DNA from: Bacteroidetes/Chlorobi group bacterium MS-B_bin-24
Lineage (GTDB): Bacteria; Bacteroidota; Ignavibacteria; Kapaibacteriales; UBA2268
DNA length: 57,104 bases
Reading direction: 5' to 3'
NCBI GenBank assembly: GCA_003731685.1
Contig: RCNO01000007.1
Location: 270 to 57,373 of the forward strand
This document shows positions 1 to 39,494 of the stretch, in pieces; within the stretch, counting starts at the first letter, position 1; each line of letters opens with the position of its first letter. The translations under genes and the position numbers were made by a program. The notes under the pieces are model-generated. The model had not been told where the DNA came from. It saw nothing but the letters and a program-made list of their open reading frames with translations, and did not search any database.

Positions 1-162
1 GTTCAAAGAATGGTTCAATTCAAAGATTTGCGTTTCCCCCTGCTTCCAATCCCTTGCCAATGATTGGGAAATGGTTAAAGATGCCCGAAATTGCGCAAAA
101 ATTGAAATTGGGAAAAAAAGAACACAATAAACGCTAATTCTGGCTTTCTTGACTTTCCACAA
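1..162 (-). CDS. 5' part of a putative exported/outer-membrane protein, runs off the window (possibly DUF3078-like)
   Basis: Not in the ORF track. Manual translation from TTG at 162 gives MWKVKKARISVYCVLFFPISIFAQFRASLTISQSLARDWKQGETQIFELNHSLN: basic N-region, hydrophobic core, A-Q cleavage, open to the window edge. Confidence 0.45.
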   Translation of the reverse strand, partial: MWKVKKARISVYCVLFFPISIFAQFRASLTISQSLARDWKQGETQIFELNHSLN

Positions 163-1987
163 GATATTTAAGATACTTCGAAGTTTCGGGTGAATAGCCA
201 ACAAAGAAATTTGTAACTTTACCATCACGACCGATAACAATTGTTGTTGGGTAATTGGATACACCAAAATAACTTACTAATTCTGAACCATTTTTAACAA
301 TCGGGAAGCTAAAATTTTTTAATTTATAGAGATGTTCGATAACTTCTTTGGGTTCGTAAGATATTGAGAATACTTTAACTTTTTTGAAATTAAAATTATT
401 AGTAATCTGTCGTAAAAACTCCATTTCTTCAATACAAAATTTACAATTAGTTGTAAAAAACGTTAAAATAATCAACTCTTGGTTGGGTTTCGAAAGTTCA
501 ATATTCCCATTCGACGTTTGAATTGTAATGTCAGGTTTTATTTCGGGTAATAAATATGATTTTATTTTAGGAAGATTTTCATTTATCCACTTCTTTGGGT
601 CGACTCCGGGATATTTTGCTTCGACAAGTGGAACTAATTTTTCAATTATGTCTTCGTTTTCGGGCATAATTTTCAAAGCAAGTAAGTAGTAAGTTATTGA
701 AGAATCAATTTGCGATAAAGATTGAAAATTTTCTGCAATTAAATTTAGGTATTCGAAAGTTGAATATTCAAACGGTTTTAAAGTCTGCAAACTCCTTTGT
801 AAAAAATTATTAGATTCTTGATATTTACCGAGTTTTCTCAAAGCAAGCCCAAGATGTAAACCCAATATTTGCCTTTTGGTAAGGATTGGATATGGAAACC
901 CTTTGTAAATTTCCGGGTAACTATTTAAGAATAGGTAATTGAAATATTTGACCATTTGGGGTAAGTAAAATGAAAGTGAATCGAGCGAAGACTTATCATA
1001 AAAAATAATAAATTTAGCTAAATCCTCACCGAATGTTCCTAATCCATTTTCATTTTTTTGTTTTATTCTTTCATTAAAAGCGGAAATAAGAATAGGATTT
1101 GACTCCATTCTTAAAAAAGAAAGTATATTAATACTTCTTTCAAAAAGTAATGTCAAAGGATTTCTTAAAAGTAAGTTCTCGAAATTTTTTGGGAAAGGTT
1201 TTTTAAGTTCATTTATGTCGGGGGAATAAAAGAATTCCAAAAAATTATCGACATAGGGGTCATTTAATTCTGAAAGGTTTTTATACATCAAAATTGTGTC
1301 CATATAATGTTGAATGTAAGAAGGGTTTTCTTTCAATAAATTCAGCCCAATTAGTTTAAGAACAAGACGTGTGGTTTTAATGGGACAAGTATCTATTGCT
1401 TTAAGGTCTTCCAAAAGAGTTTCCTTTTTTAATAATTTTTTATCAAGTAACCAATACCATAAAGAGGCATAATTTAGAAAATTTTGATGCGTTTTAATTT
1501 CATATTCTAAATTTTGTCTTAGCTCGTTTTCTTTGTCAAAGAAAGGAGCAAAGCAAACGGTAGCTCCCGCCTCAAATTCACCATCTGCCCGTTTAATAGG
1601 TAATTTGGGGGAAGTTGCTAGGAAATTTACATCTTTGCTAAAATCACATATTGAAATTTCTAATTGTGAAGTTCCCTTTGGAATAAGAAATTCTTTCGAT
1701 TCGAAAATATTTTCTTCTTTATGATTTAACCTAAGTACGGAGAAAAGGTCAAACCTTCCATCATTAGGTTTATAAAAAAGTATTATAGCATAAAGTGGAA
1801 CATTTTTATTTTTGTATTTTTCTATATCTTGTTCATTACCATAGAAATTTACTTTGTAACTTTTACCTTGAACGTAAAATGAGTCATTGGTAAAATCTTG
1901 AACAACAATCTTTCTTTCGTAAGTTTTTGTTTTGGTTGAATTGCTATTACAGCCAAAAAAAATAAATAAAATTAATAATAGCCACAT
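134..1987 (-). CDS. Lipoprotein with TPR-like helices and a C-terminal TlpA/redoxin (thioredoxin-fold) domain
   Basis: Lipobox FFGC; TPR-like LGLALRKLGKYQESNNFLQRSL and LIAENFQSLSQIDSSITYYLLALKIMPE; TFFTTNCKFC (CxxC) and FGVSNYPTTIVIGRDGKV cis-Pro loop. Confidence 0.8.
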   Translation of the reverse strand: MWLLLILFIFFGCNSNSTKTKTYERKIVVQDFTNDSFYVQGKSYKVNFYGNEQDIEKYKNKNVPLYAIILFYKPNDGRFDLFSVLRLNHKEENIFESKEFLIPKGTSQLEISICDFSKDVNFLATSPKLPIKRADGEFEAGATVCFAPFFDKENELRQNLEYEIKTHQNFLNYASLWYWLLDKKLLKKETLLEDLKAIDTCPIKTTRLVLKLIGLNLLKENPSYIQHYMDTILMYKNLSELNDPYVDNFLEFFYSPDINELKKPFPKNFENLLLRNPLTLLFERSINILSFLRMESNPILISAFNERIKQKNENGLGTFGEDLAKFIIFYDKSSLDSLSFYLPQMVKYFNYLFLNSYPEIYKGFPYPILTKRQILGLHLGLALRKLGKYQESNNFLQRSLQTLKPFEYSTFEYLNLIAENFQSLSQIDSSITYYLLALKIMPENEDIIEKLVPLVEAKYPGVDPKKWINENLPKIKSYLLPEIKPDITIQTSNGNIELSKPNQELIILTFFTTNCKFCIEEMEFLRQITNNFNFKKVKVFSISYEPKEVIEHLYKLKNFSFPIVKNGSELVSYFGVSNYPTTIVIGRDGKVTNFFVGYSPETSKYLKYLVESQESQN

Positions 1988-2006
1988 AACTTACCCTTTC
2001 TTAATT

Positions 2007-2033
2007 AAACATAAACAGGCCCCTTTCGGGGCC
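2007..2033 (-). terminator. Intrinsic terminator/attenuator between the small secreted protein and the redoxin lipoprotein
   Basis: Minus strand GGCCCC-GAAA-GGGGCC followed by TGTTTATGTTT. Confidence 0.65.
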
Positions 2034-2045
2034 CAAAATGAAAAA

Positions 2046-2429
2046 TTAGGGACAAAAATATTTACCAGAGACAGGGTCATAAACAACCGAATCGCAGTCA
2101 AATTGTAGCGGAGGTCCATAATTACCACTAGATCCTGGAGGTTCAGGTGCAACTAAAGGGTACCACCAGGTCACCCAATCCCAAATATGACATTGATCTC
2201 CACCTGGTTGACACTGGTTTTCTCCCCATTTTAAATCACCCAATTCATCACGGTGTACCGACATTCTTTCCCAATGCCCCAACACTCCCGGGGACCCTAA
2301 ATAAGGATACAATTTCCAACTGGCTCCTGGGGGCACAAGTGGCATTGAGATGGAACTTTGTGTATTCGAAAGTAATAAAATAATGAACAAAAACAGAACT
2401 AATGGCAATATAAAACCAATCTTTTTCAT
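2046..2429 (-). CDS. Small secreted Trp/Cys/Pro/Gly-rich hypothetical protein
   Basis: AAGGAG RBS; MKK plus hydrophobic signal peptide; 7 Trp and 4 Cys in the mature part. Confidence 0.75.
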   Translation of the reverse strand: MKKIGFILPLVLFLFIILLLSNTQSSISMPLVPPGASWKLYPYLGSPGVLGHWERMSVHRDELGDLKWGENQCQPGGDQCHIWDWVTWWYPLVAPEPPGSSGNYGPPLQFDCDSVVYDPVSGKYFCP

Positions 2430-2531
2430 TTTTTCTCCTTTAAAATTTGTTAAACATAATTTTTTTGAAATTGTTTAAGAAATTTTTAAGGCGAATTGGG
2501 AACAAGCGGACGCGGTGCATTGTTTAATTCG

Positions 2532-2753
2532 TCAGCTTGATGATACAAACAGGTGGAGGTCGGGCAAGCAGAACGCAACCATCGAGCGCACGCTTCTTAC
2601 GGGAACATCTATTTCGGAGTTTGATTTCTGAATATACTCTCTCTCTCTCTCTCCAGTCAGGCAAACAGAATTAAACACAAAAGGAGCCTCAAATGGAATT
2701 ATCCCCCGCATAGCAAGATTAGAAAACACTTTACGGCACCATTGCCAAAACAT
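2532..2753 (-). CDS. Possible leader ORF containing an (AG)8 tract (GERERE)
   Basis: ATG at 2753 just downstream of a promoter-like motif; no recognisable homology; may be non-coding. Confidence 0.3.
   Translation of the reverse strand: MFWQWCRKVFSNLAMRGIIPFEAPFVFNSVCLTGEREREYIQKSNSEIDVPVRSVRSMVAFCLPDLHLFVSSS
2637..2652. repeat. (CT)8/(AG)8 dinucleotide microsatellite
   Basis: ctctctctctctctct seen directly. Confidence 0.95.
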
Positions 2754-2779
2754 TTTCAAAATCTGCTAAAGTTCAAATT

Positions 2780-2810
2780 GCAATATACGAAAAAATTTCA
2801 AATTTCCAAA
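2780..2810 (-). promoter_or_regulatory. Putative Bacteroidota-type housekeeping promoter (-33 TTTG / -7 TAnnTTG)
   Basis: Minus strand TTTG-19 nt-TATATTGC in AT-rich context upstream of the cassette. Confidence 0.45.
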
Positions 2811-2977
2811 TTTTTTTTAAAAAATTTTTTGATTTCTTTAAGTCTAACTGTTTCAATAAAAATTGCGGAGATGTTGTTAAATTTTAATGTCGAGGAAGCC
2901 TTTGGCTATTTGTGCTTGGGCTTGTGTAAGTTTTGGTAATCTTGTGCAGAGGATGCACTTCCCCTTGCCCTGCGGAA

Positions 2978-3051
2978 AGACATCGGATGTTTCGCAAACA
3001 TCCGATGTTTGTGGAAATAATTGTGGGGGCGACCGGACCGGTCGCCCCAGC
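2978..3051. repeat. Composite REP-like element, locus 1 (33-bp double palindrome plus GTAG-type hairpin)
   Basis: AGACATCGGATGTTT-CGC-AAACATCCGATGTTT then GTGGGGGCGACCGGACCGGTCGCCCC, just 3' of glmS. Confidence 0.9.
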
Positions 3052-38336: not shown

Positions 38337-39494
38337 ATGGCTGCAAAAAAAGAAAAGAAGGAAAAAGTTGCAACACCAGAGACGAAAGAAACCAAACCGA
38401 AGCGAGTTTGTAAGCCACGAAAGAAACAGGTGGAAGAACCGCAGGAGCCAAAGTCGACTTCTAAATTAAAGGTTGGTGGGGCAGAAACTACCGGAACCAA
38501 AGAGCCTAAATCGAAAGAAAAGGAAATTGCACAGCCAAAAGGAGCCAAAAAAGAGGCTCAAATAAAAAAGAACGCAAAGGAAACCGTGGTAAAGGAAGAA
38601 AAAAAGGATTCAGCACAAGGCAAAACCAAAGCTACAAAAGAAGTGGAAGCGAAAAAGACTAAAACCGCAACGGAAACAAAAGCAAACAAAAAGGAATCCT
38701 CGAAGAAGAAGAAAGAAATAGCAGAGGAAATAGTTGTAAAGGAAGAGAAAAAGGATTCAGCAAAGAGCAAAACCAAATCGACCAAAGAAAAAGCGGAGAA
38801 GAAGACCAAAGCAGCCACCACTACAGAAACCACAAAAGTAGAAACTCCAAAGAACAAAAAAGAAACTACAAAGGAAACAAAAACAAAGAAGGCAGAAAAA
38901 CCTACTGAAACTGTTAAAGCTACGGAAAAGAAAGTTGCGGAAACCAAAGAAGCCAAACAACAGAAGGAAACGAAAGCATCGGAGAAGGGAAGCGCCCCCG
39001 CCGTAAAAGAGAAATACCAGTCGCAGCTGGACGAGGATAAAGTTTCGGGAAAAGTTGCTCAACCTGCTCCCAAGCCACAAGTGCGATATTCCGACGAAGA
39101 CTTGGAGATATTCAGGAAAAGAATTCTGGAAGTGAAGAAGGAAGCTCTCGAAGAACTCGAGATGCTGAAAGAAAGGCTCGAAGACTTAAACGCCTACGAC
39201 CTTGCAGAAGAAGGCTCAATCTACTCTATGCATATGGCTGAGCAAGGCTCCGAAATTTTCGAAAAAGAAAAAGTTTACGCACAAATCCAAAGAATCAATG
39301 AATACATCAAAAAACTTGACGAGGCACTGAAAAGAATCGACGACAAAACTTATGGGATTTGCCGTGTTTGCGGTATACTGATTGCAAAGGAGCGGTTGCT
39401 CGCCGTTCCAATCACAACGCTTTCTGCCTCGTATAAAATTCACAAGAAATGTCCCGAAGATGGTATCGACAGAATCGAACCGCTTGGGAAGTAA
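38337..39494 (+). CDS. TraR/DksA-family protein with a long Lys/Glu/Thr-rich N-terminal extension
   Basis: C-terminal HMAEQGS, ALKRIDDKTYGICRVCG..IAKERLLAVP; position between ileS and lspA. Confidence 0.85.
   Translation: MAAKKEKKEKVATPETKETKPKRVCKPRKKQVEEPQEPKSTSKLKVGGAETTGTKEPKSKEKEIAQPKGAKKEAQIKKNAKETVVKEEKKDSAQGKTKATKEVEAKKTKTATETKANKKESSKKKKEIAEEIVVKEEKKDSAKSKTKSTKEKAEKKTKAATTTETTKVETPKNKKETTKETKTKKAEKPTETVKATEKKVAETKEAKQQKETKASEKGSAPAVKEKYQSQLDEDKVSGKVAQPAPKPQVRYSDEDLEIFRKRILEVKKEALEELEMLKERLEDLNAYDLAEEGSIYSMHMAEQGSEIFEKEKVYAQIQRINEYIKKLDEALKRIDDKTYGICRVCGILIAKERLLAVPITTLSASYKIHKKCPEDGIDRIEPLGK

What the first reader, a model, noticed from the sequence alone, without database searches (positions are those of the whole stretch)
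134..2810. Candidate secreted Trp/Cys-rich peptide plus TPR-thioredoxin lipoprotein cassette
Seen: an AT-rich minus-strand unit of promoter, ~340-nt leader, a 127-aa signal-peptide protein (7 Trp, 4 Cys as CQPGGDQC and C..YFCP, Pro/Gly-rich), a GNRA terminator hairpin, then a 617-aa lipoprotein with TPR-like helices and a CKFC TlpA domain. Known: TlpA-type CxxC domains catalyse thiol-disulfide exchange and TPRs bind peptides. Inference: a dedicated precursor plus membrane-anchored disulfide maturase/receptor/immunity pair, with the internal terminator giving excess precursor over partner, as in many peptide systems. I do not recognise the small protein family.
Basis: partly seen in the sequence, partly recalled or inferred. 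Interest (0 to 1): 0.7.

Follow-up and report, generated by a model that had tools for sequence, protein, structure and literature searches.

The report
Secreted mini-protein with dedicated disulfide partner
A hot-spring bacterium encodes a small protein of an uncatalogued family, predicted to be exported, directly in front of a predicted membrane-anchored disulfide enzyme that has been inherited with it and likely folds it; unrelated protein pairs sit behind copies of the same control region elsewhere in the genome, and what the small proteins do is untested.

Summary
The anatomy is confirmed. The 127-aa protein belongs to an uncatalogued family of 34 aligned members, with no Pfam, NCBIfam or PDB match. 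It is predicted to be a folded, acidic beta mini-domain; only the Cys73/Cys80 pair is conserved. In 21 of 21 genomic hits (18 of 254 genomes of the order) the next gene is the same beta-sandwich/helical-repeat/TlpA lipoprotein, and the two trees share 10 of 16 splits (random 0.28). The pairing is real, but binding could not be modelled and function is untested. (1) The leader is a repeat with 13 copies in this genome, carrying a conserved upstream ORF and a variable (GA)n tract. (2) Three loci share both flanks but hold unrelated small-protein/partner pairs. (3) Population alleles vary in the small protein's core and in one 31-residue patch of the partner. Best reading: a dedicated folding/redox partner for an exported, diversifying mini-protein. 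Immunity and receptor roles remain open. This scan found similar Cys-peptide/thioredoxin cassettes (with propeller partners) earlier on other DNA, but not this family.

The parts
2780..2810 (-). Likely promoter: TTTG (2810-2807), 19-nt spacer, TATATTGC (2787-2780); fits the Bacteroidota-type -33/-7 layout (consensus recalled, not from a call)
   Evidence: Sequence; kept in most leader copies; sigma-70 scan alone not above chance
2430..2780 (-). Repeated leader region, 13 copies plus 1 partial in this genome; no Rfam family, no unusual folding energy
   Evidence: (z -0.91)
2532..2753 (-). Upstream ORF of 73 codons starting MFWQWCR; start and first ~35 codons kept in leader copies; frame after the GA tract differs between copies; translation untested
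   Evidence: variable columns 9/9/15 of 19 at codon positions 1/2/3; no Pfam hit
2637..2653 (-). (GA)8 tract; 10-38 nt in other copies; longer forms occur in public contigs laid on this leader (copy of origin not resolved)
   Evidence: +8 nt; +6 nt
2046..2429 (-). Small predicted-secreted protein P0001, 127 aa; core W53, W68-G69, C73-x3-G77-x2-C80, D84-W85-x-T87-x-W89; predicted beta mini-domain; net charge -6
2016..2035 (-). GC-rich hairpin with GAAA loop followed by a T-rich tail; likely partial terminator or RNA-stabilising end
   Evidence: weak RNA hint
134..1987 (-). Partner lipoprotein P0002, 617 aa: Cys13 anchor, beta-rich domain (~26-132), helical solenoid with TPR-like end (~142-471), TlpA/ResA-fold domain with CKFC and Pro580
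860..952 (-). Codons 346-376 of the partner: allele-variable patch, 13 of 27 differences from a population allele
1..133 (-). 5' end of a DUF3078-type gene that forms the shared downstream flank; three near-identical copies in the genome; exact start not determined

Best explanation
The small gene encodes a conserved mini-protein predicted to be exported and to fold into a beta-rich domain, and the co-inherited lipoprotein likely binds it and sets its single conserved disulfide (Cys73-Cys80), acting as a dedicated folding partner for a product that likely works outside the cell. Steps. (1) Shown: both genes are neighbours in every locus found and have matching trees. (2) Inferred: one promoter drives both, and the hairpin leaves more RNA of the small gene. 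(3) Predicted: Sec export of the small protein and lipid anchoring of the partner. (4) Inferred: the helical solenoid, through residues 346-376, reads the disulfide loop, and the CxxC domain forms, shuffles or reduces the bond; the direction is unknown, and the closest solved folds (ResA, DsbE, StoA) are reductases or isomerases (roles recalled). (5) Inferred: the folded product meets a changing outside target, because its core changes by 21 residues between alleles whose partners differ by 15 of 617. (6) Shown: the pair is one of several unrelated pairs placed behind copies of one leader. Inferred: slippage of the GA tract in the upstream ORF would tune or switch each copy.
For: Forward pairing 21 of 21: 16 partners intact with CxxC, 3 broken by a stop, 2 cut by the end of the DNA read. 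Trees of 19 pairs share 10 of 16 splits, against mean 0.28 and maximum 3 in 2000 shuffles; Mantel r 0.24-0.30, p 0.013-0.019. Both active-site Cys and the Pro580 position are kept in all 18 partners that reach that domain. The two loop Cys are kept in 34 and 33 of 34 small proteins. AlphaFold2 gives pLDDT 90.9 for the small protein and 85.5 for the partner; the thioredoxin domain matches ResA/DsbE/StoA. All 5 allele pairs with an xGGEC loop carry partner patch II, and both pairs with a GGD[QE]C loop carry patch I or one like it. The sister cassettes also pair a Cys-bearing secreted protein with a CxxC protein. Precedent: deleting the thiol oxidoreductase gene lowers bacteroidetocin activity, and that gene did not protect cells (PMC6671954, passages).
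Against: Neighbouring genes share trees through linkage alone, so congruence does not show binding. Five of the seven allele pairings rest on equal contig lengths, the patch was chosen after seeing the data, and a recombined block explains it equally well. Partners persist without an intact small gene: 2 with truncated remnants, 1 beside a small gene with a stop, 1 close homologue with none, and 5 distant homologues with none. A pure maturase should decay once its client is lost. Similar 620-670-aa TlpA proteins are widespread in Bacteroidota (TM up to 0.64). The Mantel test against the thioredoxin domain alone is not significant (p 0.06). No target, transporter or activity was found.
Confidence: 0.5

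Rival explanations
1. Antagonist and immunity pair: the small protein harms related bacteria, and the lipoprotein protects the producer by catching it and reducing its disulfide.
For: Intact partners remain beside truncated or stop-containing small genes (G526, G489, G368:C14), like orphan immunity genes. Distribution is patchy (18 of 254 genomes; 1 of 9 in the same genus). Cassettes are variable, the partner evolves fast, and the small protein's core differs between alleles.
Against: In G368:C20 and G520:C37 the partner is broken while the small gene is intact, though each genome has a second, distant partner. 31 of 34 family members are acidic, unlike cationic bacteriocins. No toxin domain or fold match was found. 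In bacteroidetocin loci the oxidoreductase gave no protection (PMC6671954, passages).
Confidence: 0.2
2. Ligand and receptor (kin or cell-density signal): the lipoprotein is the allele-specific receptor for the small protein and relays a redox signal.
For: Loop type and partner patch covary in 7 of 7 pairs. Other cassettes behind the same leader pair Cys-rich proteins with Vps10/BNR propeller proteins that gave no thioredoxin Pfam hit in the two checked, which suits binding better than catalysis.
Against: No kinase, sigma factor or TonB transducer is a constant neighbour in the 17 loci listed. Alleles differing in 21 residues share the same partner patch.
Confidence: 0.17
3. The small protein is a stable subunit or redox shuttle of the lipoprotein, and the complex serves another client in the envelope.
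For: The small protein is more conserved than its partner between genomes and has a Trp-rich folded core.
Against: The hairpin between the genes and the RNA hint point to unequal amounts. The gene is freely replaced by unrelated small proteins at sister loci.
Confidence: 0.1
4. An ordinary TlpA-family reductase with a chance small neighbour.
For: Similar TlpA proteins are common in Bacteroidota, and 6 homologues have no small gene upstream.
Against: 21 of 21 forward pairing at mostly unrelated chromosomal sites, and congruent trees.
Confidence: 0.03

Closest known systems
Bacteroidetocin loci of Bacteroidetes (PMC6671954; passages read)
   Same: Small exported Cys-bearing product with an adjacent thiol oxidoreductase needed for full activity; related phylum.
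   Different: Bacteroidetocins have a 15-16-aa double-glycine leader, a 42-aa mature peptide, a peptidase ABC transporter and a five-helix membrane protein. Here there is a Sec-type signal, a folded acidic ~100-aa domain, no transporter, and a 617-aa multi-domain lipoprotein.
Pediocin PA-1 with PedC (PMC4919988; title and start of abstract in the search listing only)
   Same: A peptide with a dedicated putative thiol-disulfide oxidoreductase.
   Different: Class IIa peptide of Gram-positive bacteria with ABC transporter and immunity gene; no sequence likeness.
TlpA/ResA/DsbE/StoA membrane-anchored thioredoxins (PDB 1st9, 3gl3, 3erw)
   Same: Fold of residues ~480-615 (rmsd 2.4-3.1 A over ~130 columns), CxxC and conserved Pro.
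   Different: Fused here to a 450-residue beta-sandwich and helical solenoid. The two residues between the cysteines vary widely (KF, GP, SA, SV, PY, AA, GL, TF, SG). The client is likely the neighbouring protein.
Cys-rich peptide / propeller / thioredoxin cassettes of Bacteroidota (NVEALA PF14055 and DUF5128 neighbourhoods; names recalled and seen in earlier scan notes)
   Same: Small secreted Cys protein first, then large envelope partners with CxxC; strain-variable. The C98 sister cassette looks like this type.
   Different: No member of this family hits PF14055. The partner is one fused solenoid-TlpA lipoprotein with no propeller.
Bacteroidota 620-670-aa 'TlpA family protein disulfide reductase' clusters (ESM Atlas)
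   Same: Predicted structure of the non-thioredoxin part aligns with TM 0.55-0.64.
   Different: Their gene neighbours were not examined; the distant homologues checked here have no small gene upstream.

Membership tests
TlpA/ResA-type thioredoxin (partner C-terminal domain) | Thioredoxin fold with CxxC and conserved Pro | tested here: met
TlpA/ResA-type thioredoxin (partner C-terminal domain) | Membrane anchor outside the cytoplasm | tested here: inconclusive
   Cys13 after a hydrophobic stretch, kept in 18 of 19 aligned partners; no signal-peptide predictor available
TlpA/ResA-type thioredoxin (partner C-terminal domain) | Thiol-disulfide exchange activity and its direction | not testable with these tools
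   needs a redox assay
TPR proteins | Pfam TPR score above cut-off | tested here: inconclusive
   TPR_12 E 8.9e-5, below cut-off; partner profile hits consensus TPR structures; helical solenoid in the model
Bacteroidetocins | Double-glycine leader and ~42-aa mature peptide | tested here: not met
   Hydrophobic signal and ~100-aa domain
Bacteroidetocins | Adjacent peptidase ABC transporter and five-helix membrane protein | tested here: not met
   Not seen beside the pair in the window or in the 17 loci listed
Bacteroidetocins | Adjacent thiol oxidoreductase | tested here: met
Bacteroidetocins | Antibacterial activity | not testable with these tools
   needs purified protein
Class IIa bacteriocins | YGNGVXC motif (as given in PMC6671954), cationic peptide | tested here: not met
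   Motif absent from the family alignment; 31 of 34 members acidic
NVEALA small proteins (PF14055) | Pfam match | tested here: not met
   0 of 34 members hit PF14055 at E <= 1
Polymorphic toxin-immunity systems | Recognisable toxin domain | tested here: inconclusive
   No family or fold match
Polymorphic toxin-immunity systems | Second gene indispensable when the first is intact | tested here: inconclusive
   Partner broken beside an intact small gene in 2 loci, but both genomes hold another partner
Phase-variable contingency loci | Simple repeat whose length varies and changes a reading frame | tested here: inconclusive
   Length varies between copies and shifts the upstream ORF; variation at one copy within a population not resolved
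Phase-variable contingency loci | Repeat length controls expression | not testable with these tools
   needs reporters or long reads

The most novel reading that the evidence does not exclude
Mat-dwelling bacteria of this order carry a multi-locus repertoire of exported disulfide mini-proteins with an unmatched fold. Each has its own allele-specific redox partner. The pairs are exchanged as cassettes between loci through shared flanks and switched by a slipping GA repeat inside a leader peptide. This would be an undescribed, diversifying recognition or conflict system in which a thioredoxin lipoprotein both matures and recognises its cognate ligand.
Probability: 0.25. Interest if true: 0.82.

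Novelty: new variant of a known kind. Interest (0 to 1): 0.62.

Why it matters
It gives a defined, testable pair: an uncatalogued secreted mini-protein family with a confident model that matches nothing in the PDB searches, plus natural allele pairs that point to a 31-residue recognition patch. It offers a likely client for one branch of the large, poorly annotated class of multi-domain TlpA lipoproteins of Bacteroidota and relatives. If the shared leader with its upstream ORF and GA tract is a switch, it shows how an uncultured mat bacterium controls about a dozen variable secreted-protein cassettes. The general idea of a Cys peptide with its own disulfide enzyme is known, which caps the score.

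Tried and rejected

Fold searches of the small protein gave nothing: Foldseek 0 matches at E <= 0.001; VIA-align best Z 3.6, rmsd 4.6 over 65 residues, among 48,161 chains. This does not show that the fold is new. Pfam, NCBIfam and PDB-sequence searches of 34 members gave only scattered single weak hits or none. The ESM Atlas gave no usable hit for P0001. The GTDB pattern scan with P0001 found 0 relatives among 366 candidate stretches; it finds close relatives only. Five profile hits (P0034, P0036, P0039, P0040, P0043) were dropped from the family: 3 were read and are long repeat proteins matching a short motif, 2 were dropped for length and repeated short matches.

Leader as a structured RNA: no Rfam match near a gathering score, folding z -0.91; not supported.

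I first read C7, C102 and C98 as strain alleles of one locus. That was dropped in favour of three co-resident loci: the downstream gene continues into three different neighbourhoods, and in DNA runs this cassette and the C98-type one each have about the depth of the glmS flank while the shared leader has about three times as much. The tool warns that contig depth is not a copy number.

RNA step-down: contig depth over the small gene was 23.4, 21.7, 12.4 and 14 against about 2-6.5 on partner pieces. The runs were chosen for holding the small gene, contig depth cannot rank genes, and in X6 one contig runs 770 nt into the partner. Kept as a weak hint only.

The first tree run had one small protein (G059) in the wrong frame; it was redone.

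Literature: seven searches found no paper on this family; PMC12419801 was checked by passages and is unrelated. The library lacks most subscription papers, and no supplements were read.
Full report
Observation. Pfam gives the 617-aa protein a thioredoxin-like domain above cut-off and TPR hits below cut-off, and gives the 127-aa protein nothing. The promoter and terminator scans are not above chance on their own; support comes from the sister cassettes. The window is the start of contig C7 of a 2.6-Mb genome. DNA holding it comes from hot-spring and microbial-mat runs. Earlier scan notes call the organism Kapabacteria-like (not tested here).

The small protein is a real family. A word search found 2 relatives, and genome searches added 3. 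A profile of these gave 36 hits among 1.84 billion representatives, of which 5 long repeat proteins were dropped. In the 34-sequence alignment W53, W68, C73, G77, C80, D84, T87 and W89 are kept in 31-34 members, but C112 and C126 in only 3 and 4. 31 of 34 are net acidic. AlphaFold2 predicts a beta-rich domain at pLDDT 90.9. No family, sequence or fold match was found. It looks like a folded mini-protein with one likely disulfide, not a leader-plus-core peptide.

The pairing is strict in one direction. The profile hits 21 places in 18 of 254 genomes of the order, and 6 of 401 genomes drawn from the class, all within that order. In all 21 the next gene on the same strand is a homologous lipoprotein: 16 intact with a C-terminal CxxC, 3 broken by a stop, 2 cut by the end of the DNA read. 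A profile of the partner without its thioredoxin domain hit 41 places in 37 of 254 genomes. 21 of these are the same loci. Of the other 20 I read 13; the 7 left matched only the TPR part. Of the 13, four have a small gene upstream (three divergent, one cut by a contig edge), two have only a truncated remnant, one has none in the 115 bases before the contig end, and six have none, five of them distant hits. Trees of 19 pairs share 10 of 16 splits against 0.28 expected; left out were G521 (identical to G520), both G368 loci, G035, G481 and G050. Linkage alone can give this, so it shows long co-inheritance, not binding.

The partner. The model (pLDDT 85.5) has a beta-rich domain, a long helical solenoid and a TlpA/ResA-fold domain. 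Both active-site cysteines are kept while the two residues between them vary. Similar architectures are common in Bacteroidota, so the paired form is likely a specialised branch.

Contigs C102 and C98 share this locus's leader (94%) and downstream DUF3078-type gene (95-96%) but carry unrelated pairs: a 162-aa, 12-Cys protein with a 568-aa TlpA protein, and a 135-aa protein with a 590-aa CxxC protein. Each has a strong hairpin between its genes. The downstream gene continues into three different neighbourhoods, and contig depths in three DNA runs fit three co-resident loci (with the tool's caveat). More distant leader copies precede 210-233-aa proteins with 16-20 Cys and large partners, two of which gave Vps10/BNR hits. 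Several genomes of the same genus show the same small-then-large layout behind a similar proximal leader, and two genomes of another genus carry a C102-type pair and a P0001-type pair in tandem.

The leader has 13 copies and one partial copy in the genome. The 12 copies whose 5' part is assembled all start an ORF with Met-Phe-Trp; across 10 distinct versions, 15 of 19 third codon positions vary against 9 and 9 at the other two, a modest sign of coding. Seven of the ten GA tracts of 10 nt or more in the genome lie in these leaders, eight with the partial copy, at lengths of 10-38 nt, and the ORF ends at different places as a result. A slippage switch is an inference; nothing here links tract length to expression.

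Population alleles. Among 11 close small-protein sequences the signal peptide and tail are nearly fixed while the core varies by up to 24 residues. Between P0002 and population alleles, 13-15 of 26-37 differences fall in residues 346-376 (window chosen after the fact). Pairing genes by equal contig length, five alleles with an xGGEC loop all have patch II. This locus (GGDQC) has patch I, and a relative (GGDEC, pair linked by locus L032) has a patch like it. Alleles 21 residues apart elsewhere in the core share patch II. This fits a partner that reads the disulfide loop while the rest of the surface tracks something outside; recombination of linked blocks fits too.

Expression. Six RNA runs hold the stretch. 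In the four laid, contigs cover both genes and cross the hairpin, with higher depth over the small gene. Selection and the nature of contigs make this a weak hint, and DNA carry-over was not excluded.

Mechanism and rivals. The best reading is a dedicated folding or redox partner for an exported, diversifying mini-protein (0.5). It works like the oxidoreductase of bacteroidetocin loci (PMC6671954, passages read) but fails membership there. Immunity (0.2) is favoured by orphan partners and opposed by broken partners beside intact small genes. Receptor (0.17) and stable subunit (0.1) remain open, and chance neighbours are largely excluded (0.03). Complex modelling was unavailable, which leaves binding untested.

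Novelty. New here are the family, the fused solenoid-TlpA partner, the multi-copy leader with upstream ORF and GA tract, and the allele pattern. Seven paper searches found no description; coverage is limited and no supplements were read. Verdict: new variant of a known kind, interest 0.62.

Noticed in passing
window 2976-3048: Palindromic repeat with very many copies across the genome; matches the REP family in an earlier scan note. It lies just upstream of this leader and just downstream of the DUF3078-type genes, so it borders the cassette units.
   Followed up: no
G000:C48, C22, C46 ends; window 1-133: The DUF3078-type gene has three copies at about 98% protein identity; its 5' end differs with each cassette, so the switch point lies in its signal-peptide region. 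A distant homologue lies upstream of the tandem cassettes in L077.
   Followed up: partly
L099-L108 (G000:C102, C98, C97, C104, C100, C67, C7:68.6k, C14, C59, C4): At least three further unnamed families of secreted Cys proteins, each with its own large partner type; none of the small proteins scanned has a meaningful Pfam match.
   Followed up: partly
window 2419, loose ends in runs X2, X6, X13, X17, X18: At least one more cassette begins behind the same leader and is not among the three found in this assembly.
   Followed up: no
L023/L028 (G035) and G368:C14: Small-gene homologues with one in-frame stop; in G035 it falls at a conserved Trp codon and the partner is split too. Decay or sequencing error.
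   Followed up: partly
L028:7581-11408: Two HipA/HipB-like modules lie directly upstream of the G035 cassette (recognised by eye).
   Followed up: no
L035 and L049 (698-1288, 676-1287), L096:2905-3438, L085:773-1354: ECF sigma-factor-like genes (by eye) lie next to several cassettes in relatives, though not in this window.
   Followed up: no
window 38337-39494: TraR/DksA-like protein (by eye) with a long Lys/Glu/Thr-rich N-terminal extension.
   Followed up: no
G000:C7:63040-65749 (outside the window): Phage-like genes (protease-like, repressor-like, Mor-like; by eye) lie a few kb from the second cassette on this contig.
   Followed up: no
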